IMG/VR virus record: IMGVR_UViG_2585427767_000004
Origin: a virus
Taxonomy: Duplodnaviria > Heunggongvirae > Uroviricota > Caudoviricetes
Length of the DNA: 18,960 bases
Direction: 5' to 3' (one strand)
Part shown: piece by piece, positions 1 through 18,010 of the stretch
Numbering within the stretch: position 1 is the stretch's first letter
How the letters are laid out: each line of letters begins with the position of its first letter
Program-made: the position numbers and the translations under genes
Notes under the pieces: generated by a model
The model's input: only the letters and a program-made list of their open reading frames with translations
Database searches by the model: none
What the model was told of the DNA's origin: nothing

Positions 1-884
1 ATGGGTATGCTGGAAAGAGAGATGAAAAACCTGGCGCGGCAGGCTGGCGGGGCGCACAAGATTGTCCATGACCGTATCGCCACGGCAGGACGGTTCTGTG
101 GACGCCTGATGGAACTGAACGTTCAGATACGCTATGTCCACCATTTAAAGACGAAGCATATTGAGGCGTATATTCAGATGCGGCTGGCGCAGGGGATTCA
201 GAAACAGACGCTGCATAATGAAACGGCGGCCATCCGTAAAATACTGACGCAGGCCGGGCGCGAAAAGCTGGCGCAGAGTGAGCGGATATCGAATAAATCG
301 CTGGGGCTGGCTGGCGTATCCCGCAACGGTACGCGGAAAGCCATTACGCCGGAATATTATCAACAGATGGCAGAGACTGCCCGGCTGAAAGACGCGGGAC
401 TGGAGGCAGCGCTGGAGCTGGCACGGCTGATGGGGTTACGTTCACAGGAAGCAGTACGCTGTTCCGGTTCACTAAAAACCTGGCGCGAAGCACTGGCGCA
501 CGGCGACACCCGGCTGACCGTGGTACTCGGCACCAAAGGCGGACGGCCCCGCGGCACCCTTATTCAGGATACTGGCGCAGTTAAACGGGCGCTTGAGACT
601 GCCATTGCGGTGACAGAACGGCGTAACGGCAGGCTGATTGATACGGCGAGCCTTAAACAGGCAATAAAATACTGGCGCAACCACACTTTGCGTATGGGCT
701 GACGGACAAATACTCCCCGCACTCACTGCGCTACGCCTGGGCGCAGGACGATATCCGCCGGTATCTGGCGCAAGGATTCAGCGAAAAAGAGGCGCTGGCA
801 ATGGTGGCGATGGGCCTGGGGCATGGCGACGGGCACGGTCGCTGGGTGAAGCAGGTGTACGCACACGAATGGAAGAAGGAATAA
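1..884 (+). pseudogene. Tyrosine recombinase (phage-type integrase), reading frame disrupted
   Basis: ORF 1..702 (233 aa) has an integrase-like N-terminal/central region including an Arg-containing box-I-like segment (RLTVVLGTKGGRPRG). TGA at 700-702 ends it, but the catalytic box II continues in another frame at 699..884 (LTDKYSPHSLRYAWAQDD...GLGHGDGHGRWVKQVYAHEWKKE, with His-x-x-Arg and a C-terminal Tyr). Either a real frameshift or a sequencing indel near 690-705. The ORF reaches the window start, so the true 5' end may lie upstream. Confidence 0.6.
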
Positions 885-1462
885 CAGCTTTCATGGCTGG
901 CGCAAAATAATACATTATGCAGTAACGGCGGTAATTTCTCTGATGCAGCTGTCAGGGAAAATCAAACCGGATAGCGCCGTTACTGCGTAACGCCAGCAAT
1001 TTACCACTCCCTCTTTACTGGATATGGCGCAGAGAGCAATGGGTATTGATTATACAGATCCAGACTACAATAACGCTTCTGGTGCAGGCTCTCATGATAC
1101 CTATCTGAATAAGCTGACTCCGTCAGAAAGGGAAAGGGTTATAAAGGTTAAAGGTGGCTAAGGGTAACAGCCCTGGCCGGAAAAGGCCGAAAACCAAAGG
1201 GCCACAAACTGGCGCAGTCCTGGATAGTTATGGTAGTTGAATGCAGGTTTGGTTGATCACAATACAGCCTGGTGTGTACAGCTTGTTCATTAACTGACCA
1301 CACTGCACGTTCACAACACCCCATCCAAAGAACAAAATGAATGCTTCCGGACTAACATCCTCACAGGCCGCTATATCGTGCCAAACAAGTACGCCAGTAA
1401 GTACGCGAGAGGAAAAATGAGAAGATCTTTATGAGAGGAAAAATTGTAACTCTTTGATTTAA

Positions 1463-1508
1463 ATGGTGCCGATAATAGGAGTCGAACCTACGACCTTCGC
1501 ATTACGAA
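1463..1508 (-). other. 3' fragment (about 46 nt) of tRNA-Thr(CGU), thrW-like; att core duplicate, not a functional tRNA
   Basis: Minus-strand sequence reads ATTCGTAATGCGAAGGTCGTAGGTTCGACTCCTATTATCGGCACCA: anticodon loop with CGT, T-arm GGTTCGACTCC, acceptor 3' strand and CCA. The sequence upstream of the anticodon loop (higher coordinates) does not form the D-arm or 5' acceptor strand, so only the 3' part is present. The match to E. coli thrW is from memory, not from a search. Confidence 0.8.
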
Positions 1509-2494
1509 TTATAAGAATCCGCTTCTAATTCAAAGCATTACCCCATTAACACTGCGCTCACACGTCCCACCACATCAAAACATGTAAAGCCTTGCAAGCC
1601 ATTGTGAGGCCTTATGTGTCTCAGTTTTGTCCCATCTTGTATTACGACTCGCATAGCCAATGAAGATAAACGTGACAACAAACGGCGAAGCAGTCTTCTT
1701 TTCTTTCACGCCTTCCCTGCACGCAGCATGCATACCTTTCTACCACAACTGAAGTGAATGCCTGTTATGAGCAACAAGCGGAAGTTAAATGGTTAGACGT
1801 TAGCATCGACTTACACAGGTCTAACCCAATGCGGCAGCTCCCGACAGGCTGGATGTTGTCAATGCTGAAAAGGGCAAGGGACGGGCAACCGCATATCTCG
1901 GCCTGCAGCGGCCCCTCCTGAAAGACGAGTCTCAGCGCTGGCATCGGCAGAATGCGTGACGGAACACATGACATCGATACGGGCGATGTTGAACAGTGTG
2001 CGTTCCCGTTCGGCAGGGGGGAGCGTGGTATGAACAGACCTGTTTTAGCCAGCCCGTATACCGGTCCCGTTTTCAGCTGTGTGAGGCGCTGAATGCCGTC
2101 GACGGGGTAGTCACTCACTTTTCCTGCGAGGGGCATCCCCGCGCCGCTGCGCGGCCATATGTTGTTTTCTCTTCCAGTGAGTTAGTGGCTCGCCGGACAG
2201 ACTGCGCAATCAGAATGGCTCACCGTCAGGGGCGCCTGCGGTACGTGTGGTGAGTGACAGGGGATTTCAGTGTTGCTTCGGGCAATTTTTTGTACTGCAT
2301 TGAACCCAATGATATCCGGTTAACCGGAAAGCCATGGCTGGGGTTAATCCCCCGCTGGCGAAGAAGGATAATGGATCACCATGCAACCTCTTGAAAATAC
2401 TTCCTTGATTATCAGAGTGTTTTTCCTCAAAATGTTTTTCTTTCAAACATTTTGTAATACACACTGCAATACACAACTTCTAAATGGATAAAGT

Positions 2495-3865
2495 ATGACT
2501 CTGAATGAATTTTCATCAACCACAGCATCTATTTTTGGTAATTTTGAAAAAATCATAAGAATGCTAAAAAGCATAAGTGACCCTAAATACATAACCGTTG
2601 CCAACAGAAGAAGCAAACTTTTGGGAAATATGTCCGAACATATTTCCATAATCAATAAATTCCATCCTTTCGCACATGCTGAATTCTTTACAAAAGAAGA
2701 AAAAGAAAATATCTTTTCACTACTAAAACTTACGGACAACTACATATCATCTATGATTTCTGATATTTTTTCAGATGATATTTATCGGAACATTATCACT
2801 ATCAATGATGATTTAATTAGGTATTCAAGAATATCTAAGTTTATCCAAGGCACGCATAATCAACCTAATACCTTAGCCATGTTCAAAAATCAAGCATCTA
2901 ATGAAATAGCCAAAGTGGTAGATCTGAAAAATGAAATTGAAATAAGTGCAACTCAAATCAGAGAGTTAGCAGTAAGAAATGCAAATTCTCATGATAAAAT
3001 CATTAAACTTGTTACGGACTTGAACGCCGAGACGAAAAAATTTGAAAGCGCCGGTTCTGAAATAGAATTCATACTAAAAAAGAGCAGAGATGCACTTATT
3101 GGTATAGAATCATCTAGTGAAAAGCTAAGAACTGTTGAAGAAACATTAAACAATATCGTTAATACAAACAAATCAATGCAAGACGAAATCATTAAAAAAT
3201 CTGCTGAGTCTGCCAGTGAGATTAAAAATCTCCTTGATAAAAAAAATGAAATTAAAGAATTAAAAACCATTATATCTGGTGAAATAAATAATGCGAAAGA
3301 ATTGAACTCTAAAGCTAATTCCGCATTGAATTTATCTGGAACATATAGGCTATCAAGACATTTTAGAGATGCATACAAAACCGCAAATAAAAACAAAAGG
3401 TTTTGGGCCTTTGTATCAATAGGAGCTGCAATCGTATGTATAGCATTCGTGGTTTATATGCTTGTCAAGATGAATGAAGTTAGTTCTTATCCTCCTACAG
3501 GCCAAGAGCCCAACTTATTATTATTATTCTTTGCTCGATTCTCAATGATTCCAGTATTAATAGGCTTCTTTGTATTTAGCGCCATACAATATGTTAAACA
3601 AAACAACATCAGTGAAGATTATGCGCATAAAAAATTGCTATCTGAAACTCTTGTATCTTTCAAGCAGGAAATCAATAAGAACGATACCGATAAATCATCA
3701 TTATTCATGGATAACATTCTTAAATCAGTATTAAGATCACCGCTTAGCTCCATAGACAAGAAGTCGCATCAAATGGAAATTGATAAAATAAACGAATTGA
3801 TTAATACGACATCTAAAATTAATAAAGAAATTATAGACCGCGTTTTGCCTGAGAAAGAGAAATAA
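2495..3865 (+). CDS. Hypothetical protein, 456 aa: coiled-coil-rich N-terminal domain, two predicted transmembrane helices, short C-terminal tail; candidate membrane effector (defence / superinfection exclusion); family not recognised
   Basis: Long uninterrupted ORF in a visibly AT-rich block, with ATG at 2495 and a weak GGA Shine-Dalgarno about 6 nt upstream. Residues about 309-330 (FWAFVSIGAAIVCIAFVVYMLV) and about 348-370 (LLLLFFARFSMIPVLIGFFVFSAI) are strongly hydrophobic. The N-terminal 300 aa are K/E/I/N-rich with heptad-like periodicity. No catalytic motif recognised. Confidence 0.8.
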   Translation: MTLNEFSSTTASIFGNFEKIIRMLKSISDPKYITVANRRSKLLGNMSEHISIINKFHPFAHAEFFTKEEKENIFSLLKLTDNYISSMISDIFSDDIYRNIITINDDLIRYSRISKFIQGTHNQPNTLAMFKNQASNEIAKVVDLKNEIEISATQIRELAVRNANSHDKIIKLVTDLNAETKKFESAGSEIEFILKKSRDALIGIESSSEKLRTVEETLNNIVNTNKSMQDEIIKKSAESASEIKNLLDKKNEIKELKTIISGEINNAKELNSKANSALNLSGTYRLSRHFRDAYKTANKNKRFWAFVSIGAAIVCIAFVVYMLVKMNEVSSYPPTGQEPNLLLLFFARFSMIPVLIGFFVFSAIQYVKQNNISEDYAHKKLLSETLVSFKQEINKNDTDKSSLFMDNILKSVLRSPLSSIDKKSHQMEIDKINELINTTSKINKEIIDRVLPEKEK

Positions 3866-4110
3866 CCTTATCTATAGCTACAAGGAAGGTAATATGCTTT
3901 TTGCAGTTACCTTCATGTAGCAGGTTTGCAATCACTACATATGTAATTTTTATTTCCCACTCATTCGCCCTAACTCAATTTGCATACTTACCTCATTAAT
4001 AGGCATTTTGTCTTCCATGAGTACATCCAAGCCTCTCCGGTCAGGGCATGAAGGGGCGCCAGTTCATAGACGGTGCAGTGATTCTGTCCAGTGCTGGCAT
4101 TCCGCATGCT

Positions 4111-4162
4111 GCAGCTGCGCGGCAAGCCTGAAATCTGCTGGCATACTTTACGCTCGGTGCGC
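4111..4162. repeat. Direct repeat R1 (about 51 bp), partner of 4306..4357
   Basis: GCAGCTGCGCGGCAAGCCTGAAATCTGCTGGCATACTTTACGCTCGGTGCG versus GCAGCTGCGCGGCCAGTCGGAAATCTGCTGGCATACTCTGCGCCCGGTGCG, near-identical by eye. Additional copies of a TGCTGGCA-like motif occur nearby (e.g. about 4091, 4181, 4362). Confidence 0.6.
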
Positions 4163-4305
4163 CGGTGAACACGGCCCGCAGCTGGCATCTTTACACATAA
4201 CCAGTACTGTAAAAGTCCCGTAATACCGTGTCGCCCGGTCATTTTCAAACCACCGTTTGGCCGCTACCATTCAGTACTTTTCGTCCTGCTGACAGATGTG
4301 CCATC

Positions 4306-4357
4306 GCAGCTGCGCGGCCAGTCGGAAATCTGCTGGCATACTCTGCGCCCGGTGCGG
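4306..4357. repeat. Direct repeat R2 (about 51 bp), partner of 4111..4162
   Basis: See R1; same orientation, about 195 bp apart, in a GC-rich segment with no convincing ORF. Confidence 0.6.
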
Positions 4358-4512
4358 TCGCAGAACTGCTGGCAGACAGTCCTTTCTTCATTTACCCACT
4401 ACCTGGACACAAAGCGTTGTACGTCCAGTTTGGGGGCGAATTATGATTAGGCAGGCTCCGGCAGTGCTCCCGGCTCTGTCAAAATTTAGTGACGTAAAGT
4501 CATGGAGGATCG

Positions 4513-4644
4513 GTGGGAGGAGGTGCAAATCCTCTCATACAAAAAATACGTAAAATCGGTAACGGCTGGAAATAATTCAATACTTGCACTATCGGAAGTT
4601 CACCAGCCAGCCGCAGCACGTTCTTGCATACGACGTGCCTGCGG
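4513..4644. repeat. Direct repeat A (about 130 bp), partner of 9108..9234; ends in a stem-loop
   Basis: Aligns by eye to 9108..9234 at roughly 80 percent identity (shared CAAATCCTCTC...GTAAAATCGGTA.C.GCTGGAAAT.ATTCAA...GCACTATCGGAAGTTCACCAGCC..CCGCAG). 3' hairpin CCGCAGCACG-loop-CGTGCCTGCGG followed by TTT. Confidence 0.7.
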
Positions 4645-5349
4645 TTTCAACTCCCGCCAGCCCACCAATCATGATTGGACGGTGTAAGGACAACACCAAA
4701 AAAACATGAAGTTAGCAGTCTCAGCGGAACACCGACCAGACGGTAAGCAGACAAAAAAGGATAAGCAAAGGAGCCGCAGTTCCCTAATGACACGAAAGCC
4801 CGCATTCTGATTAATTTGCTGTGCTTCACCTATCTCCATCAATAAAAACCATTCTTTTATAGCTTGTATATGCCAACTTGGCATGAATGCTTGTGATGAG
4901 TGAGGTGTGAAAGTTAGACGCAACATCCCCCTAGCGCCCACTCATTGCTATCGACGCCTTATTTTCAACATCAATGCAAATAGAAGTATGAAGATCGATG
5001 ATAGTAAACATTAGGTTAAAAAAACACGTAGTACTCTCCTTGGAGTATGAAGACGTTACTCACTTTAAGATTAGCATCCTCAAACCACTGTGAATTTGCT
5101 CCCATACGGAAAGAGGTGACTCAGACCTACAAAAATTTGTCAGGCCCGAAGGGTATCTTGCGCCAGCATAAAATACTGGATATAACCTAACTATTCATTT
5201 TAGCAATAGCCATTGCTTACGAGAGCTAGCTAATCTACGTAAATGCTAGGCATAACAGTGTCTTTAAAAGATATAGGTGGAATAAGTTCTGAAGTATGAG
5301 TGCTCTTCTTTTTCATCTATTCGTAATCAAAATGTGGATGTGATTGTTA

Positions 5350-8300
5350 ATGACAAATAAAAAAAATTTGAGTAATCCTTTTTCTACAGGCGGAGGCGGT
5401 GTTCATTTTGAAGCACATGTCCAAGCGTCTTTTGTTGCTCTAATGCTAACAGGCGGTAATGCACCTTGTCTTCCTTGTTGGCCCATAGTGGAGATAAATC
5501 TCCAGGGCAAGATTGATGGTTTTGATACCGACGACTTGATCGTCGTTGTTAAAGATTTCAACAGCAATGAAAAACGGAAGCTATTAGGACAAATAAAGCA
5601 TTCTATTTCATTTACGCAAGGTAATGCGATACTTGGGGAAGTTATACAGGCTGCTTGGAACGATTTCAACAATCCTGACTTGTTTACCAAGAACAAGGAT
5701 GTTATTGCACTGATCACCGGTCCGCTCAGTTCGACCGATACACACAATGTGCTCTGGTTATTGAATCAGGCTAGACACACAAAAACAGTCGATGAATTTT
5801 TGAGGAACGTTCAAAAAGCCAAGTTCAGCCCGCCTAAAAGTACTGAGAAACTGGAGGCCATCCAGTTTCATCTGAAGATGGCAAACAGTGGGAACGATTT
5901 AACAAACGATGAGCTTTATGACTTTTTGAACCATTTCCATTTACTAGGGTACGATCTGGGTAATGAATCAGGCGTCGTCCTTTCTTTGCTGCACTCCCAC
6001 ATAGCGCAATTCCATCAACAGTATCCTCAGTGGGTTTGGTCGCGGATAGTTGATATCGTACAAACTTGGAATAAAGATGCTGGCACTATCATTTCAAGTA
6101 AGCTACCTGAAGATCTTTTAGATGTTTTCAAACAAAGGGTTATTGCTGAAATACCTGAGAAGTTGAGGTTAGTACAACCGGTAGTCAAAACCGACTGGAC
6201 TCACCACCCAGATGCCTCTTATTTAGCCTTAGCAGTGTTGATTGGGCAATGGAATGATAAAAATGAGTGTGACCGAAATGTACTAACCCAATTGCTTGGT
6301 ATCAGCTATGACGAATGGCTAAGGAAGGCTCGAGAGATTTTACATAGCCCAGACAGTCCTTTGTCCCTAAAAAACGGCATTTGGAAAGTAACAAATCGAA
6401 TGGAGCTATGGAGTCTTCTTGGATCCCGCATTTTTGATCAGAATCTTGAATTGTTTAAGTCTTCCGCGATTTCCGTACTCAAAGAGCCAGACCCTGCTTT
6501 CGAATTACCTGCTGAAGAGCGTTACGCTGCTAGTATTCATGGTAAGGTGCTGAAGTTTTCATCCACGCTGCGACAAGGTATAGCAGAGGGTTTAGCCATA
6601 ATCGGGAGTCGGCCAGAGGTTTGCGTTAACTGCTCTCAGGGGAATGCTGAAACTTCCGTTAACGTCGCAATACATACAATTTTGACTGATGCAAACTGGG
6701 TTTTATGGGGTAGCCTAAACGGTTTGCTACCAACTTTGGCTGAAGCAGCTCCTGCAAAATTTCTTGATGCAGTTGAGAAGGCAATGCGTCAGACTCCTTG
6801 TGCATTTGATGAGCTTTTTTCTCAAGAAGTAAATGGTATCACTGGTGGTAATTATCTGACAGGACTGCTATGGGCTCTAGAAGAATTAGCCTGGGATGAG
6901 CAATACCTAGTACGCGTCTGTGTTGTACTGGCCGAACTTGCCAGCCACGATCCTGGGGGCAAGTGGGCTAATCGACCATCTAACTCGCTTACTACTATAT
7001 TATTACCGTGGTTTCCGCAAACGCTGGCATCTATAGAAAAACGAAAAGTTGCAGTCAACGTCATCTTGCAGGAATGGCCTGACATTGCCTGGAATTTACT
7101 CGTCCAGCTTCTACCCGGTCACCATCAAACCTCTTCTGGGTCACACAAGCCCTCTTGGCGCCGAATAATCCCAGATGATTGGGAAAGCAAAGTGACTAAT
7201 CAGGATTACTGGTTGCAGACATCTTTTTATGCTGAGCTTGCCGTCAAAAACGCCGGAGAAGATATCGAACGCCTTACCTTGTTGATTGATAATTTTGATG
7301 GCCTTCCATCTCCTGCTTTCGAACATCTTCTTAAGCACCTCTCTTCGGAAACAATTAATTGTCTTAATGAAGAGCAGCGAGTTGTAATTTGGGATCATCT
7401 TCATCGATTCGCAAATAAACATCGGCGATTCTCTAATGCTAATTGGGCTTTACCTGATGATCTGCTGACCAAAATCGAAAATGTTGCCGAGCAACTGGCA
7501 CCTACCAATCCATTCAACTTATATCAGCACCTTTTTTCAAATCGAGATTTTGATCTTTACTTAGAAAATGGCGATTGGGAAGAACGGAGAAATAAACTCG
7601 AATCAAGGCGCGAATCCGCAATATCAGAAATTCTTAAGCAAGATGGCGCAGAAGGCGTTATTCGATTTGCAGATCACGTTTCTGCGCCCCATCAAATAGG
7701 AAGTGTACTCGGCACTATCAACGATGATGTGTTCGAAAAACTTCTTTTGCCCCGTTTCCTCAATACAAAAGAAAATAAGTATAAGGCATTGGTAAGCGCT
7801 TTTATTTGGAAGCGTTTCTATCTCAAAGGCTGGGAGTGGTTCGACAATCTGGATAAAGCTGACTGGACTCCTGAACAGTTAGGCCAATTCTTTGCTTATC
7901 TGCCTTTTAACAAGGAGACCTGGACCCGAGTCTCTCATTATCCTCAAGCTTCCGAGAACGAATATTGGGCTCGCACCGATGCAAATCCTGACCTGGGTGA
8001 AGGTGACCTTACTAGTGCCATCGATAAGCTGATTGATCATGGCAGACCTCTTGCGGCAATCAATTGCCTGTGCAGGATGCATCAGACAAAGCAGCCAATC
8101 GATACTGAACAGTGTATCCGCGCTTTGCTTGCTGCCACTTCAACTAACGAATCTAGCTCCAACATGGATGGTTACAACATAACTACCCTTATCCAATTTC
8201 TTCAGACTGATCCCAAAGTGAATCCGGATAATCTTTTTCAGATCGAGTGGGCTTACCTTCCATTGCTCGATGGTCACCAAGATGCTGTGCCTAAGTTCCT

Positions 8301-8892
8301 TGAGAATAAAATGGCTAATGATCCAGAATTTTTCTGCGAAGTAATCCAACTCATTTATCGTTCTGACAAAGAAGACAATATGACAAGTGAACCAACAGAG
8401 GAATTGAAAGCAATCGCAAAAAATGCCTGGACTCTTTTGTACAACTGGAAGACACCGCCAGGAAGCCAATCAAATGGGACGTTCAACGGAGAACGCTTTA
8501 CTGAATGGCTTCAGAAAGTTAAGGAGGGTTCTACGGCATCAGGTCACCTGGACGTTGCACTCAGCAAAGTTGGTGAAGTCTTGATTTATACTCCCTCCGA
8601 ACCGAATGGCTTGTGGATAAACCGAGAGGTCGCAGCTGCTCTCAACGATCGAGATGCTGAGAGTATGCGCAGGGGCTACATGACAGGAGCCTACAACTCA
8701 CGAGGTGTTTATTGTGTTGACCCAACTGGAAAACCTGAGAGAGAGCTAGCTGACCAGTTCCGGGCAAAAGCAGAAGAAGTGGAAAACGCTGGTTTTCAGC
8801 GATTCGCCGTTACCTTAAGAGATTTAGCGGTTGGCTATGACCACGAAGCTGCACAGGTTATCAGCAATCTAAATATTGGAGAGGATGATTAA
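5350..8892 (+). CDS. Large hypothetical protein (about 1180 aa), no P-loop; family not recognised; candidate stand-alone defence or toxin protein
   Basis: Uninterrupted 3.5-kb ORF. The track starts at TTG 5344, but ATG 5350 (MTNKKNLSNPF...) is the more likely start. Moderately AT-rich compared with the tail genes. No Walker A (GxxxxGK[ST]) found on reading the translation. Gly-rich N-terminus (FSTGGGGVHFEAH), CxxC pairs (CLPC, CVNC), Trp-rich helical remainder. Putative terminator just downstream. Confidence 0.85.
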   Translation: MTNKKNLSNPFSTGGGGVHFEAHVQASFVALMLTGGNAPCLPCWPIVEINLQGKIDGFDTDDLIVVVKDFNSNEKRKLLGQIKHSISFTQGNAILGEVIQAAWNDFNNPDLFTKNKDVIALITGPLSSTDTHNVLWLLNQARHTKTVDEFLRNVQKAKFSPPKSTEKLEAIQFHLKMANSGNDLTNDELYDFLNHFHLLGYDLGNESGVVLSLLHSHIAQFHQQYPQWVWSRIVDIVQTWNKDAGTIISSKLPEDLLDVFKQRVIAEIPEKLRLVQPVVKTDWTHHPDASYLALAVLIGQWNDKNECDRNVLTQLLGISYDEWLRKAREILHSPDSPLSLKNGIWKVTNRMELWSLLGSRIFDQNLELFKSSAISVLKEPDPAFELPAEERYAASIHGKVLKFSSTLRQGIAEGLAIIGSRPEVCVNCSQGNAETSVNVAIHTILTDANWVLWGSLNGLLPTLAEAAPAKFLDAVEKAMRQTPCAFDELFSQEVNGITGGNYLTGLLWALEELAWDEQYLVRVCVVLAELASHDPGGKWANRPSNSLTTILLPWFPQTLASIEKRKVAVNVILQEWPDIAWNLLVQLLPGHHQTSSGSHKPSWRRIIPDDWESKVTNQDYWLQTSFYAELAVKNAGEDIERLTLLIDNFDGLPSPAFEHLLKHLSSETINCLNEEQRVVIWDHLHRFANKHRRFSNANWALPDDLLTKIENVAEQLAPTNPFNLYQHLFSNRDFDLYLENGDWEERRNKLESRRESAISEILKQDGAEGVIRFADHVSAPHQIGSVLGTINDDVFEKLLLPRFLNTKENKYKALVSAFIWKRFYLKGWEWFDNLDKADWTPEQLGQFFAYLPFNKETWTRVSHYPQASENEYWARTDANPDLGEGDLTSAIDKLIDHGRPLAAINCLCRMHQTKQPIDTEQCIRALLAATSTNESSSNMDGYNITTLIQFLQTDPKVNPDNLFQIEWAYLPLLDGHQDAVPKFLENKMANDPEFFCEVIQLIYRSDKEDNMTSEPTEELKAIAKNAWTLLYNWKTPPGSQSNGTFNGERFTEWLQKVKEGSTASGHLDVALSKVGEVLIYTPSEPNGLWINREVAAALNDRDAESMRRGYMTGAYNSRGVYCVDPTGKPERELADQFRAKAEEVENAGFQRFAVTLRDLAVGYDHEAAQVISNLNIGEDD

Positions 8893-8918
8893 TCTAAACA
8901 CCTAAATGTGGAGAAACT

Positions 8919-8962
8919 GGCTGTCAATCGATGTTCCTGTCACAGACAGCCAAGTTTTAGTT
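8919..8962 (+). terminator. Putative Rho-independent terminator downstream of the large ORF
   Basis: GGCTGTC...GACAGCC inverted repeat (7-bp stem; inner CTGTC-ACA-GACAG hairpin also possible) followed by AAGTTTTAGTT, 27 nt after the stop codon. Confidence 0.5.
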
Positions 8963-9107
8963 ATTCGCTGATCTGCACTTAGTTGATGAATATAAACTCA
9001 TCTTAGCAACGTACCTCTCCCTCTTGATTAAAGGTAGCGTACATCGCCCCGTTGAACTCACAGCACTAACAGTCCTCGTGACAGTGGTTATCTGTGATGT
9101 AGAGTCT

Positions 9108-9234
9108 GTGGAGGCGGTTCAAATCCTCTCAGGCAAAAATATGTAAAATCGGTAGCAGCTGGAAATCATTCAACACCCGCACTATCGGAAGTTCACCAGC
9201 CATCCGCAGTAACTTGTCATGGCAAGACACTGCG
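9108..9234. repeat. Direct repeat B (about 130 bp), partner of 4513..4644; ends in a stem-loop
   Basis: Same element as repeat A. Its hairpin is CCGCAGTAACTTG-loop-CAAGACACTGCGG: the stem is preserved with different inner base pairs, i.e. compensatory changes relative to copy A. Lies immediately 3' of the minus-strand gene 9246..9533. Confidence 0.7.
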
Positions 9235-9245
9235 GATTCTTATGC

Positions 9246-9533
9246 TTAACGGATCAACAGCCAGACCAGCAGACACGCCACCACCGGCACAGCAAAATCC
9301 ATCAGGCTTGCCACATCCCAAGCACGCGGATCAAAACCGCCCCACCACGGCATATTCATTCGCTTGCCATGCCCGAACATTTCAATCCAGCGATATTCTG
9401 CCTGGGTATGTTCACGAGCGATGAAGAACGTACAACCAGCTATCGCACCGTAAGCCCAGTTTCCGGTAAAAAGACCAACCAGTACCTGCGCAGCCACAGC
9501 ACAAAGTGCATGAAGTAAGGGGCTTATATCCAT
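9246..9533 (-). CDS. Small hydrophobic (membrane) protein, 95 aa, last gene of the tail-fibre operon; function unknown
   Basis: ORF with two to three hydrophobic segments (LLHALCAVAAQVLVGLF, AVPVVACLLVWLLI). Follows the tail-fibre genes on the same strand with a 13-nt gap. Confidence 0.65.
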   Translation of the reverse strand: MDISPLLHALCAVAAQVLVGLFTGNWAYGAIAGCTFFIAREHTQAEYRWIEMFGHGKRMNMPWWGGFDPRAWDVASLMDFAVPVVACLLVWLLIR

Positions 9534-9546
9534 TACTCCTCCTTTA

Positions 9547-10248
9547 TCAGATATCGTTTCGGGAAGTTGATAACAACTTTAATTCTGACTGAAGTTCATC
9601 AACTCTTTCTGTCAGTTTCTGGATATGGTGAATCAGTGGAACAACCAGACGTTCGTACATTACACCTTCGGCAACAAGGCCATTGCTGGAAATAGCTTCC
9701 GGTGCATCATCTTCGTTAGCTGGTCGCCAGTGTACAAACTGAGGGGCAATTTCTCCTACTTCCTCGGCAATCAATCCGTAGAATCCCCAGTCACGCCTGT
9801 CATTTTCGCATTGCGACCTGTACCACACAGGGCGCATCTTGAAAATGAGATCGGCGTGCTCTGAATCTATCGTCTCTACTGAATGTTTATAGCGAATAGA
9901 CGATGTTGACCGCAGTACAGACGAAATTGCGGGGTCAGGATTAAGATAAAGGTTTGCCGCCGCTGTAGTCGTGGCCAAATTCCATAAATAAAACGCTTCT
10001 CGACCTGTCAGCGGGTAAAAATCACCGCCATAACGACCGCTTTCCAGATCGTTCGCTTCCACTTTGTTTTTCAGCTTATTATCAACTTCAGTTTTTGTGT
10101 ATCTGGTGCTGATATCCTGCTTTGCACTGGTCATATCAGTCTGAAGCGTTGATACTTTTCCGTTAATTGAGGAAATATCTTCCTTAGCTTTACTGACATC
10201 TCCCTTTAGCGTGGTAATGTCTCCCGGAATTACTGTCGATGTAGCCAT
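9547..10248 (-). CDS. Tail fibre domain protein with C-terminal intramolecular chaperone (peptidase S74-like) domain
   Basis: N-terminal coiled-coil-like segment (GDITTLKGDVSKAKEDISSINGKVSTLQTDMTSAKQDIS) and C-terminal WGFYGLIAEEVGEIAPQFV...YERLVVPLIHHIQKLTERVDELQSEL, which matches the pattern I recall for endosialidase-chaperone-type C-terminal domains of phage fibres. Confidence 0.7.
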   Translation of the reverse strand: MATSTVIPGDITTLKGDVSKAKEDISSINGKVSTLQTDMTSAKQDISTRYTKTEVDNKLKNKVEANDLESGRYGGDFYPLTGREAFYLWNLATTTAAANLYLNPDPAISSVLRSTSSIRYKHSVETIDSEHADLIFKMRPVWYRSQCENDRRDWGFYGLIAEEVGEIAPQFVHWRPANEDDAPEAISSNGLVAEGVMYERLVVPLIHHIQKLTERVDELQSELKLLSTSRNDI

Positions 10249-10257
10249 TTTTCTTCC

Positions 10258-10539
10258 TCACATCCAGCCACGAAGTTGATGCTCAACAGCAACCACGTAT
10301 TCATCGAATATTGACAGTGTTTTCACATCATTAATGATGCGCACGTTTACAAAATATCCGTCTTCCTTAACACATACCGGTTCGCCATCTTCATTCAGTT
10401 CTCCGGTTTCTTTGTACACGTTACCTATCACGTCAATAAGAATATCATCCTGCATCGACTCGTCATCATAATAGCCAGTGCTATCCATAAAGGCCGAAAA
10501 GTCGGCCTTGTCTGCAAATTTAAGGGTTAAGTCTCTCAT
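10258..10539 (-). CDS. Hypothetical phage protein (93 aa), translationally coupled to stf
   Basis: Start codon overlaps the stf stop (ATGA overlap at 10536-10539). Acidic protein. Sits where lambda carries tfa but is shorter, and I do not recognise it as Tfa. Confidence 0.65.
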   Translation of the reverse strand: MRDLTLKFADKADFSAFMDSTGYYDDESMQDDILIDVIGNVYKETGELNEDGEPVCVKEDGYFVNVRIINDVKTLSIFDEYVVAVEHQLRGWM

Positions 10540-12596
10540 GATATTTTTTCTCCCATTTGTGTCTCGGTCAATTCTTTATGCCAGTTCCTAAAATTTCGAA
10601 TATGACCGAATAAGTGACGTTCACCCGTTGAAGTTTGCCCACCAAAACGAATGCTTGTATTCTTAGTTACATATCTCCACGCGGTTTTTTTAGGAACACT
10701 AGGAGGAATATCACCATTCAAAACAATATGAACACCATAATCTTTAGTAATTCTAAATCCAGCAACGAACTTTCTCTCTTTCGTTACCAGGTAACTATTA
10801 ACGCGTCCAGCATCTGCACCAACATCAATATAAGGGCTACCAGTATTTGCGGCAGTACCGCCACGGCAACCAAAAATAACGGCCTGGCCCGTTGGCACAC
10901 CGGAAAAATCCATTATACGTGGTGCTGCATTAGGAGGAAGTTCCCATTCCCAATTTCGATGAACTTCGGCTAAAATTGTAATAGGTGCGTCATACATATT
11001 ATTCTTAACAGGAATGTTAACCAAATCACTAGCGCGGGTAGCTGGTACGTCGTTAGTTATGATTAATGATGTTGCATGAGAACATTTCTCTACCTGAGCG
11101 GTTGCCGCCTTTATGTAATTTCCTGCGACCAATTCGCCGCCACTTTTAGCAAGCATTTCAGTACGAGCATAAACGCTCATATCTTCGGTAGCTTTAAATG
11201 TCGATTGGAAAAAATACCATCCACTAGCAGGATCATAATCAACGCGACTAGACAAAACATCACTAACTAGTTTAGCGGTATCAAGATCCAACATAGCATC
11301 AGCAATAAATGTGTTTCCGTTCCCGTCATCATTTAATTTTGAAATACGATGGCGAGCGCGACAACCAGCCCCCTTAACACGAATAGATATAGTAACATAT
11401 TCACCACCAACAACTGGAATCACACGGGATGTCCCAGTAGAAATCAACGTAACTGGCCCAGTGTCGGATGATTCTTTATAAGTGAATGTTGCTTGAGTAA
11501 AACCAAATTCATCAATAGAGTTTTCACTAACAGATAGACGGTTTGTATTTCTGTTCCAGTTCGCTGGTGAGTTACTATTAATAAAGTTATTAGTCGTAGT
11601 ACCTTCAATCAACAAACCATTTTTTTCGAAGCGTGGTTCGTCAATTGCAGCCTCCGTCAGTACACCAGATTTGTTAATGTAGGTTGCTTTCGATGCGCGT
11701 TTAAACTTTACAACCTTATCGCCAGGCATTGTTATTTCATCATCACCAATAACAATCTTTTTATATGATGGCGAAAAGCCCGTAATCATATCCAGTGAAT
11801 CGTTAAACGGTATCCACACATCGGGAAGCGGCTGCAAAACTTGTTTATACGGCTCCGCAGCCTGGCTTGCATACTCTCTGGCTGCGTCTTCACTTGCTTT
11901 AGCTGCTGTCTGGCTTGCTGCCGATGCTTTCGCCGAGTTCGCCGCCGCTGTTTCGCTCGCCTTTGCGTTGTTTTCACTGGTTTTTGCTGCTTTTTGGCTG
12001 TTGGCTGATGCAGTGGCAGAAATAGCCGCCTCGCTTGCAGATCCGGCTGCGGCACTCTCGCTTTCAGCTGCTGCATCCTGACTGTTTTTCGCCGCAGTTT
12101 CGCTGGCTTTAGCGTTCGTTTCGCTGGTCTTCGCTACCGTCTGGCTGGACTTTGCGTTAGTTTCGCTCGTCTTCGCTGCTTTCTGGCTGTTAGCAGCTGC
12201 AGTTTCGGATTTCTTTGCCGCCGCTGCGCTCTGAGAGGCGGCTTCAGCGTTGCGTGCTGCTTCTTCCACCATTGCCTCAAAACGACGCAATGCCTCCGGC
12301 ATGACATCATCTTCCGTCATGGCACCGAGAAAATCATTCAGCGTACCAGGTCTGGAACCTTCATAGACGGTAATGGTTCCGGCATGTGAAGGCGGAAAAC
12401 CTTCAACCAGCAGGGTGACGCTGTACTGGCCATGCTCAACATCCATGCTGTAACTCCCGGCTTCATCCGGATTTTCAGAGGCCACCGTGTTCACCAGTAC
12501 CGTGGTGCTGTTACGCTTTGCTTTGAGCTGAATAGTGCAGTTCTGTATTGGTTTTCCTGCACCGTCTTTCAGCACGCCTGAAATCTGTACTGCCAT
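10536..12596 (-). CDS. stf: Side tail fibre protein (lambda Stf-like) with Ala/Ser/Thr-rich repeat shaft and a distinct C-terminal domain
   Basis: N-terminus MAVQISGVLKDGAGKPIQNCTIQLKAKRNSTTVLVNTVASENPDEAGSYSMDVEHGQYSVTLLVEGFPPSHAGTITVYE closely resembles the lambda Stf N-terminus as I recall it. Start placed at ATG 12596 with GGAG 5 nt upstream; the track start at 12602 is an in-frame GTG. Confidence 0.9.
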   Translation of the reverse strand: MAVQISGVLKDGAGKPIQNCTIQLKAKRNSTTVLVNTVASENPDEAGSYSMDVEHGQYSVTLLVEGFPPSHAGTITVYEGSRPGTLNDFLGAMTEDDVMPEALRRFEAMVEEAARNAEAASQSAAAAKKSETAAANSQKAAKTSETNAKSSQTVAKTSETNAKASETAAKNSQDAAAESESAAAGSASEAAISATASANSQKAAKTSENNAKASETAAANSAKASAASQTAAKASEDAAREYASQAAEPYKQVLQPLPDVWIPFNDSLDMITGFSPSYKKIVIGDDEITMPGDKVVKFKRASKATYINKSGVLTEAAIDEPRFEKNGLLIEGTTTNNFINSNSPANWNRNTNRLSVSENSIDEFGFTQATFTYKESSDTGPVTLISTGTSRVIPVVGGEYVTISIRVKGAGCRARHRISKLNDDGNGNTFIADAMLDLDTAKLVSDVLSSRVDYDPASGWYFFQSTFKATEDMSVYARTEMLAKSGGELVAGNYIKAATAQVEKCSHATSLIITNDVPATRASDLVNIPVKNNMYDAPITILAEVHRNWEWELPPNAAPRIMDFSGVPTGQAVIFGCRGGTAANTGSPYIDVGADAGRVNSYLVTKERKFVAGFRITKDYGVHIVLNGDIPPSVPKKTAWRYVTKNTSIRFGGQTSTGERHLFGHIRNFRNWHKELTETQMGEKIS
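11855..12270 (-). repeat. Tandem short repeats inside stf encoding an (A)KTSETNAKAS-like Ala/Ser/Thr-rich shaft
   Basis: Protein residues about 112-250 consist of reiterated AAKTSETNAK / SQKAAKTSE / ASETAAKNS units; the DNA shows corresponding reiterated GCTTTAGC/GTTTCGCT/GTCTTCGC blocks. Confidence 0.55.
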
Positions 12597-12610
12597 ATTC
12601 ACTCCACAAA

Positions 12611-12635
12611 TAAAAAAGGCGCCATTTCTGGCGCC
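12611..12635 (-). terminator. Rho-independent terminator between J and stf
   Basis: On the minus strand: GGCGCC-AGAAAT-GGCGCC followed by TTTTTTA, beginning 21 nt after the J stop and ending just upstream of the stf ribosome-binding site. Confidence 0.65.
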
Positions 12636-12656
12636 CGTATTGGGGTTATAAATATT

Positions 12657-15600: not shown

Positions 15601-16070
15601 CCCTTAATGGTGATGTCTTTTTCCGTCACCCAGCCACCGTTACGCTGTATCTGAACCAGCAGGCGGACTTCCGACGGATTCCTGTCTCCCTTTGAGGTGG
15701 TTTCCACCAGTGCCTGTACACCGAAGGTAAAGCGCAGACGGTCGATGTTTGCCGACGTGATGGTCCGGGTGATCGGCGTGTCATATTTCACTTCCGTACC
15801 CAGCACCGTCTCGGAGCCGGAGGATTCAAATCCCTCCGGCGGTGACTGCTCCTGCTCACCGGCCCGGAACACCACCGTGACGCCGGAGATGTTGGTATTC
15901 CCCTCAGTGTCCAGCACCGGCGTACTGTTCAGCAGCACACTTTTTAATCCCTCCACCGGACCTTCAACCGGCCCTTCGCTGATGGCATCGATCACACTCA
16001 GCAACTGCGTGGACTTCAGGTTGTCCTTCGCTTCGCGCGGGGTATGCCCCTTACTGCTGCCTTTACCCAT
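12657..16070 (-). CDS. J: Host specificity protein J (central tail fibre / tip attachment protein)
   Basis: 1137-aa protein beginning [34 protein letters not shown], colinear with lambda J as I recall it over most of its length. The C-terminal roughly 130 aa (from about [20 protein letters not shown]) appear different. GGAG ribosome-binding site upstream. Confidence 0.95.
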
Positions 16071-16130
16071 TCCTCACGCTCCATAAACGACAAAACCGCC
16101 CGCAGGCGGTTTCACATAAAACATTTTGCA

Positions 16131-16778
16131 TCAGCGACCAATCACCACAACCTGACCACCGTCCCCTTCGTCTGCCGTGCTGATCTCCTGAGAAACCACG
16201 CGTGACCCCACGCGCATTTCCCCGTACAGAACAGGCAGAACATTGCCCTGGGCAACCATGTTATCCAGTGAGGAGAAATACGTGTTCTGTTTGCCGTTAT
16301 CCGTTGTCTGTGTGCGGGGAGTTCTGGCTTTCGGTGCCAGCATCTGCGCCACACCGCCCAGGATCATACTGGCCCCTGCCGCATACATGCCCGATACAGC
16401 CGCGGCACCCAGCCAGCCCACAGGGTTCCACCATGCCACCGCAATCAGCGCAGCCCCCAGCACTGCCTGAAAAACACCGCCACTTTTGGCACCCGCCAGA
16501 CGCGGTACGATGTGGATCACGGCACCATTTGCCAGCGGCTCATTAAGACGGGCAGATAATTCGTTTTCGCCTGCATCACGCCCGGCAATGCGCACCTGAT
16601 ACCAGCCCTCATTCAGTTTCTGACGAAACGCCGGGAGCTGCGTGGCCAGCGCCCGGATAGCTTCGGCTCCCGTTTTCACACGAAGGTCGATGCGGTGGCC
16701 AAATCGTTGCAAATCCCCGTAAAGGCAGATGCGTGCCATGCCCGGTGACGCCAGAGGGAGTGTGTGCGTCGCTGCCAT
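16131..16778 (-). CDS. I: Tail assembly protein I
   Basis: MAATHTLPLASPGMARICLYGDLQRFG... with C-terminal ...KQNTYFSSLDNMVAQGNVLPVLYGEMRVGSRVVSQEISTADEGDGGQVVVIGR, matching lambda gpI as recalled; position between K and J. Confidence 0.9.
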   Translation of the reverse strand: MAATHTLPLASPGMARICLYGDLQRFGHRIDLRVKTGAEAIRALATQLPAFRQKLNEGWYQVRIAGRDAGENELSARLNEPLANGAVIHIVPRLAGAKSGGVFQAVLGAALIAVAWWNPVGWLGAAAVSGMYAAGASMILGGVAQMLAPKARTPRTQTTDNGKQNTYFSSLDNMVAQGNVLPVLYGEMRVGSRVVSQEISTADEGDGGQVVVIGR

Positions 16779-17419: not shown

Positions 17420-17424
17420 GGGAT

Positions 17425-17968: not shown

Positions 17969-18010
17969 TGAACTGCACCCCAAATGTTGGACATAATCTG
18001 ACATCTGAAG

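What the first reader, a model, noticed from the sequence alone, without database searches (positions are those of the whole stretch)
1509..9245. Mosaic cargo region between attR and the tail-fibre operon with sharp compositional shifts
By eye the region alternates between GC-rich segments lacking credible ORFs (about 1800-2260 and 3990-4700), a very AT-rich gene (2495-3865) and a moderately AT-rich gene (5350-8892). That pattern suggests several independent acquisition events at one hotspot rather than a single operon. About 1 kb next to the att fragment (1509-2494) has only short overlapping ORFs and may be decayed DNA or non-coding RNA.
Basis: seen in the sequence. Interest (0 to 1): 0.5.

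Follow-up and report, generated by a model that had tools for sequence, protein, structure and literature searches.

The report
Prophage cargo hotspot with defence genes
The DNA between the prophage's attachment-site scar and its tail-fibre genes is a patchwork of at least seven pieces of different origin, laid out as two swap-in slots that hold known anti-phage genes in related E. coli prophages; here they hold two uncharacterised genes, one of which looks like an uncatalogued single-protein nuclease immune sensor.

Summary
GC in 300-bp windows runs from 0.29 to 0.61 across 1509-9245, 2.7 times the spread of shuffled sequence. The interpretation (several acquisitions at one hotspot) is supported by comparison with other genomes. 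The region is the non-essential 'b region' of a lambdoid prophage integrated in thrW. Short conserved linkers, shared with many E. coli prophages and with phage lambda itself, bound two variable slots. In other genomes slot 1 holds AbiTii, a PD-T7-1-like gene, other unrelated genes, or no annotated gene. Slot 2 holds a type II restriction-modification system plus PD-T4-3. Here slot 1 holds a 31%-GC gene for a 456-aa coiled-coil, two-transmembrane protein. It arrived with about 0.6 kb of Citrobacter-like GC-rich flank and lies beside a 72-nt Gabija scar and a plasmid-like repeat. Slot 2 holds an 1180-aa protein: a nuclease domain resembling Cap4 and Avs3 on a roughly 900-aa helical-repeat body. 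That body recurs in at least 6,600 protein clusters, and some relatives replace the nuclease with SIR2, FRG, phosphoesterase or glycosyltransferase heads. Pfam, NCBIfam and PADLOC have no model for it. Neither defence function has been tested. The hotspot is an ordinary kind of feature; the 1180-aa family is the part worth following up.

The parts
1464..1509 (-). Displaced 3' part (46 nt) of tRNA-Thr thrW; the prophage attR core
   Evidence: Window 1-1509 is 99.9% identical to L005, where tRNA-Thr is annotated at the positions that map to window 1464-1539. Homology ends at 1509. ARAGORN finds no complete tRNA in the window.
1510..1788 (.). Conserved prophage arm. 1510-1642 is specific to this thrW prophage family. 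1643-1788 is 'linker A', also present in an ssrA-integrated prophage and in phage lambda between ea59 and attP.
   Evidence: Window 1446-1782 is 92.6-93.2% identical to L006-L009, and shorter parts of it match L001 (1446-1763, 93.4%) and L003 (1446-1708, 89.1%). Window 1643-1782 matches L002 at 87%. Window 1643-1788 matches lambda at 81%.
1768..1839 (-). Scar of a Gabija locus: the last 8 codons of gajB (LPHWVRPV*, 1811-1837) plus downstream sequence
   Evidence: The match to L010 is 100% over 1783-1839 and extends back to about 1768. Translations of the two ends agree. The L010 genes score as GajB (E 3.8e-132) and GajA (E 1.1e-211) in PADLOC.
1872..4022 (+). Citrobacter-like segment that carries the AT-rich gene. 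The gene's own unit is about 2372-3891.
   Evidence: 96.3% identical to a Citrobacter chromosome locus, L015 6391-8534. Only 2372-3891 is shared (76.8%) with Klebsiella aerogenes L018.
2495..3865 (+). Gene for a 456-aa protein: N-terminal coiled coil, two transmembrane helices (about aa 301-331 and 339-367), and a conserved juxtamembrane core (aa 274-430). Candidate membrane-acting defence or exclusion factor.
   Evidence: ORF and translation. GC 0.313. 25 homologues, and every one that carries a source name is from Enterobacterales. Conserved core. Hydropathy. dN/dS 0.11-0.25. Only weak PADLOC hits, to DruC and ZorA.
4023..4489 (.). GC-rich non-coding element with an internal direct repeat spaced 195 nt apart (4111-4161 and 4306-4356)
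   Evidence: Repeat family D2. Similar sequence lies in unannotated DNA of Klebsiella, Salmonella and Pantoea plasmids, most of them predicted conjugative. Folding is no better than shuffles, z -0.19 and -0.66. In E. coli it occurs only in the two genomes that carry the module, plus one weak plasmid hit.
4488..4640 (.). Linker B, copy 1: a conserved lambdoid b-region sequence (in lambda, the ea31-ea47 intergenic region)
   Evidence: 87.9% identical to lambda at window 4488-4644 (lambda position). About 91% identical to L006-L009. Aligned in A2.
4641..4803 (+). Relic of an ssrA-type attachment site: a core resembling the 3' end of tmRNA (about 4641-4668) plus the adjoining prophage arm
   Evidence: Window 4641-4804 is 93% identical to L002 6001-6166, which begins in the last 28 nt of the annotated ssrA gene.
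4804..5153 (.). AT-rich spacer of unassigned origin at the left edge of slot 2; IS1 sits at position 5031 in other genomes
   Evidence: GC of 4804-5349 is 0.379. In L003 and L004, homology to the window starts at 5031 directly after an IS1.
5154..8978 (+). Mobile unit of the 1180-aa gene: upstream region, CDS 5350-8892, and about 86 nt downstream
   Evidence: Kosakonia L012 matches 5154-5274 (78.5%) and 5336-8978 (84.8%).
5350..8892 (+). Gene for the 1180-aa protein: N-terminal PD-(D/E)xK nuclease domain resembling Cap4/Avs3 (aa about 17-285), a probable winged helix (about 289-347), and a helical-repeat solenoid. Candidate single-protein anti-phage sensor-effector.
9063..9245 (.). Linker B, copy 2. 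It forms a direct repeat with copy 1 (4516-4616 against 9110-9209, 87-89% identical) and carries a 39-aa ORF mis-annotated elsewhere as 'capsid protein'.
   Evidence: Repeat families D1 and D3. Window 9063-9209 matches lambda at 84.7%. Annotation in L001 and L003. The crossover between the copies was mapped in L002.
9246..9533 (-). 95-aa gene (phrog_1443). It is the first gene of the conserved tail-end module and marks the right border of the cargo region.
   Evidence: PHROG hit, E 9.9e-58. Conserved next to linker B in L002 and in phage PhiR11_1.

Best explanation
**What it is.** Window 1510-9245 is the accessory ('b') region of a lambdoid prophage integrated in thrW. It lies between the displaced 3' part of the tRNA and the tail-fibre module.

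**Layout.** Short conserved linkers separate two variable slots.
- Linker A is 1643-1788.
- Linker B is 4488-4640, with a second copy at 9063-9245.
- Slot 1 (about 1789-4487) sits where lambda has ea59-ea31.
- Slot 2 (about 4804-9109) sits where lambda has ea47.
- An ssrA-type att relic (4641-4803) follows linker B copy 1, so the region reads as two b-region cassettes in tandem.

**How it changes.**
- Shown: cargo differs completely between otherwise similar prophages.
- Shown: a related locus is an exact recombinant between the two linker-B copies.
- Shown: each cargo piece brought its own foreign flanks.
- Inferred: cassettes are gained and lost by homologous recombination in the linkers. 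This is tolerated because the region is dispensable for phage growth.

**What the cargo does.** This part is inferred, not shown. The cargo most likely protects the lysogen against other phages.
- The 1180-aa protein would use its helical-repeat body to sense a phage component. It would then release or assemble its Cap4/Avs3-like nuclease head to cut DNA and abort the infection.
- The 456-aa coiled-coil, two-transmembrane protein would act at the inner membrane, either by abortive infection or by blocking entry. Support for this is much weaker.
For: **Position and borders.**
- att fragment and Dnd-island neighbour.
- Tail module on the minus strand from 9246.

**Linkers.**
- Both linkers match E. 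coli prophages that sit next to the same thrW att fragment at 89-93%.
- Both match lambda at 81-88%.
- Lambda ea47, ea31 and ea59 are non-essential: PMC10695390.

**Variable slots.**
- Six slot-1 alleles share no sequence, and the two slot-2 alleles are unrelated.
- Some alleles score as AbiTii (E 6.7e-32), PD-T7-1 (E 2.3e-68), PD-T4-3 (E 7.6e-140) and a type II restriction enzyme (E 1.5e-233) in PADLOC; annotation.
- A Gabija remnant sits at the slot-1 edge.

**Recombination.** L002's single linker B matches copy 1 at every informative site up to 4521 and copy 2 from 4525/9119 onward.

**Foreign origins.** Citrobacter-like 1872-4022 at 96.3%, a plasmid-like repeat, and a gene unit shared with Kosakonia.

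**1180-aa protein.**
- Fold and matches to defence nucleases.
- Invariant E21, D61, D62, Q81 and K83.
- The C-terminal roughly 900 aa recur with SIR2_2, FRG, Metallophos or GT4-conflict heads.
- Neighbours elsewhere include type I R-M, GmrSD, a large SIR2 protein, CcdAB, ArdC and a reverse transcriptase.
- Patchy distribution, 8 of 5,426 E. coli genomes.
- Purifying selection, dN/dS 0.08-0.17.

**456-aa protein.**
- Intact and under purifying selection.
- Homologues sit as cargo beside capsid genes in phage- or satellite-like elements, or as single-gene islets.
Against: - No experiment shows defence by either gene.
- Neither gene hits a PADLOC model convincingly. The 1180-aa protein has none. 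The 456-aa protein has only weak coiled-coil-type hits to DruC (E 9.8e-05) and ZorA (E 0.0019).
- The nuclease assignment rests on a predicted structure. Pfam DUF4297 is not hit even at E <= 1. The third catalytic position is Q-x-K rather than (D/E)-x-K.
- The 1180-aa protein keeps about 70% identity across phyla, which is unusual for a sensor in an arms race.
- Some slot-1 alleles are not defence genes. L001 has a PLP-dependent aminotransferase plus a DMT transporter, and L003 has an AraC regulator. Position alone therefore does not prove function.
- The promoter and terminator scans found no more sites than in shuffled sequence, so independent expression in the lysogen is assumed, not shown.
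- The order of events that produced the tandem cassettes and the ssrA relic cannot be reconstructed from these data.
Confidence: 0.75

Rival explanations
1. The cargo genes are lysogenic-conversion or phage-benefit genes of another kind rather than anti-phage defence. Examples would be a membrane protein for host fitness or virulence, and a DNA-processing or counter-defence protein used by the prophage itself. The hotspot architecture would be the same and only the function would differ.
For: Some alleles at slot 1 are metabolic or regulatory: a PLP-dependent aminotransferase plus DMT transporter, and an AraC regulator. Neither window gene has a convincing hit in PADLOC, Pfam or NCBIfam. The 1180-aa protein is unusually conserved across phyla, unlike most rapidly diversifying sensors. 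The 456-aa homologues in Citrobacter, K. aerogenes and Enterobacter are single-gene islets among ordinary chromosomal genes.
Against: The five best structural matches of the N-terminal domain are all defence effector nucleases: Avs3, Cap4 (two structures), HamA and LmuA. Some relatives replace that domain with SIR2, FRG or metallophosphatase heads that match PADLOC defence or defence-candidate effector models. Genomic neighbours elsewhere are restriction-modification, GmrSD and toxin-antitoxin genes and mobile elements. The alternative occupant of slot 2 is a restriction system plus PD-T4-3.
Confidence: 0.2
2. Slot 2 was not built by linker recombination. It was built by site-specific integration: a lambdoid phage with ssrA specificity integrated into a secondary site at the end of linker B in a resident thrW prophage. 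Recombination between the two sets of homologous phage genes then deleted one copy, leaving two b regions in tandem.
For: The ssrA-like core starts exactly where similarity to lambda's linker B ends, at a shared CTGCGG/CGCGGG motif. The arm after the core is the same as the one next to the genuine ssrA gene in L002. A second linker B copy closes the cassette. L002 shows the mirror-image nesting: an ssrA prophage that contains linker A.
Against: There is no second ssrA-like core at the right end of the cassette. No integrase gene lies within this window's prophage sequence, 1510-18960. The composite middle block is already present in the sampled E. coli genomes (L001, L006-L009), so the event, if it happened, is old, and later exchanges such as the L002 crossover are plainly homologous.
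Confidence: 0.3
3. The region is a single ancestral operon or block, and its uneven composition only reflects gene-specific codon or amino-acid bias, or decay in place.
For: Both long genes are on the same strand. The AT-rich gene with its GC-rich flanks and repeat element (1643-4616) also travels as one block in L002.
Against: The parts have different, separately traceable relatives. The two genes are never found together in 5,426 complete E. coli genomes. Homology to related prophages breaks at the linkers.
Confidence: 0.03

Closest known systems
Phage lambda b region (ea47-ea31-ea59, between tfa and attP)
   Same: It has the same position relative to the tail-fibre genes and the att site. 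The same two linker sequences are present at 81-88% identity. It is non-essential for phage growth (PMC10695390).
   Different: The cargo is different. Here linker B is duplicated, an ssrA-type att relic sits between the two slots, and the att specificity is thrW.
Defence hotspots of P2-like phages and P4-like satellites (Rousset et al. 2022, PMC9122126)
   Same: Conserved flanks surround a slot whose content varies between closely related prophages and is rich in anti-phage systems.
   Different: It is a different phage family and a different position (att-proximal b region). It has two slots in series, and here remnants of earlier cargo and co-transferred foreign flanks can be traced.
Cap4-type (DUF4297-like) PD-(D/E)xK effector nucleases of Avs3, CBASS Cap4, Hachiman HamA and Lamassu LmuA
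   Different: There is no sequence-level hit to Pfam or PDB. The motif is Q-x-K. The partner module is a helical-repeat body in the same chain, not a STAND NTPase, SAVED domain, helicase or SMC protein.
DSR2 (SIR2 effector fused to a helical-repeat sensor for a phage protein; description from my own knowledge of the published work, not tested here)
   Same: The architecture is similar: an N-terminal toxic effector plus a long alpha-helical repeat region in one polypeptide, with no NTPase. Relatives of the window protein carry SIR2 in place of the nuclease.
Upx (single-protein nuclease defence; PMC13099982, PMC13601566)
   Same: It is a single large protein (1212 aa) with PD-(D/E)xK nuclease activity that responds to phage proteins.

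Membership tests
Lambdoid prophage accessory (b-region / moron) hotspot | Lies between the tail-fibre genes and the attachment site | tested here: met
   The att fragment is at 1464-1509 and the tail module starts at 9246.
Lambdoid prophage accessory (b-region / moron) hotspot | Conserved flanks with unrelated content among related prophages | tested here: met
   The arms and linkers are 89-93% identical, while six slot-1 and two slot-2 alleles share no sequence.
Lambdoid prophage accessory (b-region / moron) hotspot | Cargo dispensable for phage growth and expressed independently in the lysogen | not testable with these tools
   The homologous lambda genes are non-essential (PMC10695390). The cargo genes are on the opposite strand to the tail genes. 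The promoter and terminator scan was uninformative.
Anti-phage defence hotspot | Alternative occupants of the same slots are recognised defence systems | tested here: met
   PADLOC scores other occupants as AbiTii, PD-T7-1-like, PD-T4-3 and a type II restriction enzyme. The remnant at 1768-1839 comes from a locus that scores as GajA/GajB.
Anti-phage defence hotspot | The occupants of this window protect against phage | not testable with these tools
   This needs plaque assays. The only computed support is by position, fold and neighbourhood.
Cap4/DUF4297-type PD-(D/E)xK nuclease domain | Restriction-endonuclease core fold (alpha-beta-beta-beta-alpha-beta) most similar to Cap4-type domains | tested here: met
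Cap4/DUF4297-type PD-(D/E)xK nuclease domain | Catalytic D ... (D/E)-x-K motif | tested here: inconclusive
   E21, D61, D62, Q81 and K83 are invariant. The motif reads Q-I-K, not (D/E)-x-K. Activity has not been tested.
Cap4/DUF4297-type PD-(D/E)xK nuclease domain | Sequence match to the family model (Pfam DUF4297) | tested here: not met
   There is no Pfam hit for 18 family members even at E <= 1. A profile search against PDB sequences found nothing.
Avs (antiviral STAND NTPase) | Central STAND NTPase with Walker A/B motifs | tested here: not met
DSR1/DSR2 (defence-associated sirtuins) | N-terminal SIR2 NADase domain and a match to Dsr models | tested here: not met
   The window protein has a nuclease head, not SIR2. 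There are no Dsr hits in PADLOC for it or for its SIR2-headed relatives.
Upx | Match to the Upx model or structure over the whole protein | tested here: not met
   The only hit in 1-10000 is a weak CssrB match at 4612-4683, at 24 bits against a gathering score of 76.

The most novel reading that the evidence does not exclude
The 1180-aa protein would represent a large family of NTPase-free, single-protein immune sensors that Pfam, NCBIfam and PADLOC v2 have no model for. The family spans at least 6,651 clusters at 50% identity. Its conserved winged-helix plus helical-repeat body (aa about 280-1180) carries interchangeable N-terminal effectors: a Cap4-like nuclease here, and SIR2, FRG, a metallophosphatase or a conflict-type glycosyltransferase in some relatives. 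The nuclease form moves between phyla while keeping about 70% identity and a fixed length. The same slot logic would make the 456-aa coiled-coil, two-transmembrane protein a second unknown membrane-acting defence gene.
Probability: 0.5. Interest if true: 0.75.

Novelty: new member of a known kind. Interest (0 to 1): 0.5.

Why it matters
The hotspot itself is an expected feature of temperate phages. Here, though, it can be read at base-pair resolution:
- the linkers are shared with lambda;
- a crossover was mapped to a 3-nt interval;
- a Gabija remnant is left from earlier cargo;
- a piece of Citrobacter-like chromosome rode in with an AT-rich gene;
- a relic of a second attachment site marks the join of two cassettes.

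That makes it a clean example of how prophages trade accessory genes. It also gives a simple rule for finding new defence genes in the many E. coli prophages that carry these linkers: take whatever lies between linker A, linker B and the tail-fibre module.

The practical pay-off is the 1180-aa protein. It belongs to a very large family spanning several phyla with no curated model. It has the hallmarks of an immune sensor-effector and a small set of invariant residues to test.

Tried and rejected
**Non-coding RNA.** The Rfam scan of 1-10000 at E <= 1 gave nothing in 1509-2494 and only a sub-threshold CssrB hit at 4612-4683. The ncRNA idea was dropped.

**Structured DNA in the GC-rich repeat element.** I considered a plasmid leading-region hairpin promoter for 4020-4490. 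Neither strand folds better than shuffles. Rejected.

**Promoter and terminator scan of 1400-9600.** It found fewer sites than in shuffled sequence and was uninformative.

**Sequence-family searches that found nothing useful.**
- Pfam, NCBIfam, PADLOC and PDB sequence searches gave no usable hit for either protein.
- A PHROG match to phrog_18693 (unknown function) covers only aa 282-1168.
- An N-terminal profile against PDB sequences, and Pfam at E <= 1, found nothing.

**Candidate relatives ruled out.**
- The 1269-aa SIR2 protein next to the Vibrio homologue is not a detectable homologue. It counts only as defence-island context.
- A 456-aa ORF in the b region of phage PhiR11_1 has the same length by coincidence and no similarity.
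- Upx and DSR2 are not supported as relatives.

**Other searches.**
- tblastn of the 1180-aa protein against 50,697 phage records found no match.
- Literature searches for the family, including by RefSeq accession, found nothing.


Full report
**1. Observation**

- GC is 0.58 at 1783-2260.
- GC is 0.31 in the 456-aa gene (2495-3865; GC3 0.28).
- GC is 0.55 at 3990-4489.
- GC is 0.44 in the 1180-aa gene (5350-8892).

The spread of 300-bp GC values across 1509-9245 has sd 0.074 and a range of 0.29-0.61. That is 2.7 times the mean of 200 shuffles and twice the largest shuffle. Both long ORFs are present.

The att fragment is real. Window 1-1509 is 99.9% identical to the end of a Dnd island plus thrW in E. 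coli Ecol_316. The match stops inside tRNA-Thr, leaving its 3' 46 nt at 1464-1509 on the minus strand. ARAGORN finds no complete tRNA.

**2. What the region is**

Genes from 9246 rightwards are tail genes on the minus strand: a 95-aa phrog_1443 gene, tail-fibre proteins and J. The finding therefore covers the DNA between the tail-fibre module and attR of a lambdoid prophage. This is the equivalent of lambda's b region.

No complete E. coli genome out of 5,426 carries the whole arrangement. Parts of it are common, however. Local BLAST against fetched loci shows short blocks shared with other E. coli prophages that sit next to the same thrW att fragment:
- 1446-1782 at about 93%;
- 4490-4803 at about 91%;
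- a partial second copy of the latter at 9110-9209.

Two of these blocks are also in phage lambda itself.
- Window 1643-1788 matches lambda DNA between ea59 and attP/int at 81%.
- Window 4488-4644 and 9063-9209 match the ea31-ea47 intergenic region at 88% and 85%.

I call these linker A and linker B. Slot 1 (about 1789-4487) is therefore where lambda has ea59-ea31. Slot 2 (about 4804-9109) is where lambda has ea47. CRISPRi mapping scored all three lambda genes as non-essential (PMC10695390).

**3. The slots are variable and hold defence genes elsewhere**

Between the same arm and middle block, other genomes carry in slot 1:
- AbiTii plus a DUF6650 protein (L006);
- 986 bp with no annotated intact gene (L007);
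- a 321-aa hypothetical (L008);
- a PD-T7-1-like protein plus a 156-aa hypothetical (L009);
- a PLP-dependent aminotransferase plus a DMT transporter (L001);
- an AraC regulator with insertion sequences (L003).

Six slot-1 alleles were compared, counting the window's own and excluding L003. They share nothing beyond a few bases at the linker edge.

In L006-L009 slot 2 holds a type II restriction enzyme, a cytosine methyltransferase and a GIY-YIG protein. In this window, L001 and L003 it holds the 1180-aa gene. In L004 the same gene follows an IS1, and homology to the window starts only at 5031.

PADLOC scores these occupants as follows:
- AbiTii, E 6.7e-32;
- PD-T7-1, E 2.3e-68;
- PD-T4-3, E 7.6e-140;
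- type II restriction enzyme, E 1.5e-233.

The slot-1 module of this window is in only 2 of the 5,426 genomes. The 1180-aa gene is in 8. None has both.

**4. Fine structure of slot 1**

Slot 1 is itself a mosaic.

- *Gabija scar.* Positions 1768-1839 are identical or near-identical to the end of a Gabija locus in strain EC102. They keep the last eight codons of gajB (LPHWVRPV*) and the DNA downstream of it, after which similarity stops. PADLOC confirms that the EC102 genes are GajA and GajB. I read this as a scar of earlier cargo.
- *Citrobacter-like segment.* Positions 1872-4022 are 96.3% identical to a Citrobacter chromosome, where the 458-aa homologue sits alone between an AraC-type regulator and an iron ABC transporter. 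In Klebsiella aerogenes only 2372-3891 is shared (76.8%). That interval is therefore the gene's own unit, and 1872-2371 is GC-rich flank that travelled with it. Its short ORFs hit no Pfam family. The gene is about 31% GC in hosts whose flanking DNA is about 54% GC.
- *Repeat element.* Positions 4023-4489 are a GC-rich element with a direct repeat spaced 195 nt apart. Related sequence lies in unannotated DNA of Klebsiella, Salmonella and Pantoea plasmids, most of them predicted conjugative. It shows no folding signal. Its role is unknown.

**5. The middle block and the tandem cassettes**

Alignment A2 shows that linker B copy 1 follows the lambda sequence up to a hairpin ending in CTGCGG. It then switches to the last roughly 26-28 nt of ssrA (tmRNA) and the DNA that follows the genuine ssrA gene in an ssrA-integrated prophage, L002. 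Positions 4641-4803 are therefore a relic of an ssrA-type attachment site inside a thrW prophage.

L002 shows the mirror image:

ssrA - same arm - SOS-response-associated peptidase (SRAP) and umuDC - linker A - the whole slot-1 module of this window - one linker B - tail genes.

L002's single linker B matches copy 1 at every informative site up to window 4521, and copy 2 from 4525/9119 onward. The two arrangements thus differ by one crossover within a 3-nt interval of the roughly 100-nt direct repeat (D1/D3). That crossover adds or removes the cassette 4522-9118. This is direct evidence that the linkers act as recombination joints. Whether the first join of the two cassettes came from an integration into a secondary site or from recombination cannot be decided; I list it as a rival.

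**6. The 1180-aa protein**

*No curated family.* There is no hit in Pfam, NCBIfam, PADLOC or PDB sequences. One PHROG of unknown function covers only aa 282-1168.

*Large and conserved family.*
- An exhaustive HMMER search of 1.84 billion cluster representatives finds 6,651 clusters at E <= 0.001 and 3,111 at E <= 1e-30.
- Full-length relatives of almost constant length keep 68-72% identity in records named Vibrio, Alloalcanivorax, Microbulbifer, Acidithiobacillus, Chlorobium and Planctomycetes.
- dN/dS is 0.08-0.17.

*Swapped heads.* Other relatives match only from about aa 280 onward and have different N-termini. Of the eight I scanned, five have a recognisable head:
- SIR2_2 in two of them;
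- FRG;
- calcineurin-like phosphoesterase;
- 'GT4-conflict' glycosyltransferase.

The SIR2, FRG and phosphoesterase heads also match PADLOC defence or defence-candidate models.

*Predicted structure.*
- The AlphaFold2 model has mean pLDDT 82.6. It shows an alpha-beta-beta-beta-alpha-beta domain at 17-123 extended to about 285, then a helix-strand pattern at 289-347 that fits a winged helix, then helical repeats to the end.
- The full-length model gives the same top hits. For the rest it gives only generic ARM/HEAT-type repeat proteins and small winged-helix regulators.
- E21, D61, D62, Q81 and K83 are invariant.
- There is no Walker A motif.

*Neighbours elsewhere.*
- A type I restriction system in a Kosakonia island whose genes include antirestriction, RadC and CbtA/CbeA.
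- GmrSD, an AAA_15 ATPase and a large SIR2 protein in Vibrio.
- CcdAB, ArdC and a reverse transcriptase in Dickeya.
- SymE and Fic in Alloalcanivorax.

**7. The 456-aa protein**

- It has a long N-terminal coiled coil and two hydrophobic helices at about 301-331 and 339-367. Its invariant core spans aa 274-430.
- Only 25 homologues were found, and every one that carries a source name is from Enterobacterales.
- dN/dS is 0.11-0.25.
- Homologues are single-gene AT-rich islets in Citrobacter, K. aerogenes and Enterobacter.
- In Klebsiella pneumoniae and Rahnella they sit beside capsid genes in phage- or satellite-like elements within lambdoid prophages.
- PADLOC gives only weak hits to DruC and ZorA over aa 127-275, within the coiled-coil region.

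I rate a membrane-acting abortive-infection or exclusion role as the most likely function, with low confidence (about 0.35).

**8. Verdict**

The region is a two-slot accessory hotspot built on lambda-type linkers. It has at least seven pieces of separate origin:
- the arm with linker A;
- the Gabija scar;
- the Citrobacter-like segment;
- the repeat element;
- linker B with the ssrA relic;
- the 1180-aa unit with its spacers;
- linker B copy 2.

As a kind of feature it is known, so I file it as a new member of a known kind. The part that deserves follow-up is the 1180-aa family.

Noticed in passing
window 1-1463: This is the end of a DNA-phosphorothioation (Dnd) island, with a frameshifted integrase-domain gene at 1-884. 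In E. coli Ecol_316 the island lies directly 3' of thrW. Two mobile elements are therefore stacked at the same tRNA gene here.
   Followed up: partly
L024-L026 (Klebsiella pneumoniae) and L029-L030 (Rahnella), around 6001-7400 of each locus: Homologues of the 456-aa gene lie between two ClpP-protease/capsid fusion genes, next to a DUF1441 gene and a D5 or AAA_25 primase-helicase. This looks like a capsid-encoding satellite, or a second phage, recombined into the head region of a lambdoid prophage.
   Followed up: no
window 4612-4683 (minus strand): There is a sub-threshold Rfam match to CssrB, a chromosome-encoded Shigella sRNA (24 bits against a gathering score of 76). It overlaps the hairpin at the end of linker B and the ssrA-like core.
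   Followed up: no
window 4516-4545 and 9110-9139: Both copies of linker B begin with a motif that resembles a tRNA T-loop (GGTGCAAATCC and GGTTCAAATCC). It might be an older, decayed tRNA-type att relic, but this is speculation. ARAGORN calls no tRNA.
   Followed up: no
L002 6001-12529 (E. coli 19AR1321, prophage at ssrA): This is the mirror-image arrangement of the window. An ssrA-integrated prophage carries an SOS-response-associated peptidase and umuDC-like genes, then linker A, then the whole slot-1 module of this window.
   Followed up: partly
L033 1-7779 (Vibrio parahaemolyticus): Here the 1183-aa homologue is preceded by a 1269-aa SIR2_2 protein, which is not a detectable homologue, and by GmrSD and an AAA_15/AAA_21 ATPase. 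The context looks like a defence island.
   Followed up: partly
window 11851-12150: There is a strong AT skew (-0.61) with GC 0.57 inside the 688-aa tail-fibre gene (10536-12602, minus strand). It is probably a repetitive glycine-rich segment of the fibre.
   Followed up: no
window 13446-15140 (plus strand): A 564-aa ORF lies antisense to the tail gene J. It is most likely a by-product of the high GC content of J rather than a gene.
   Followed up: no
window 5031: In several E. coli genomes (L003, L004 and others) an IS1 sits exactly at this position upstream of the 1180-aa gene, and everything to the left is replaced. The gene has therefore also moved or been rearranged by IS activity.
   Followed up: partly
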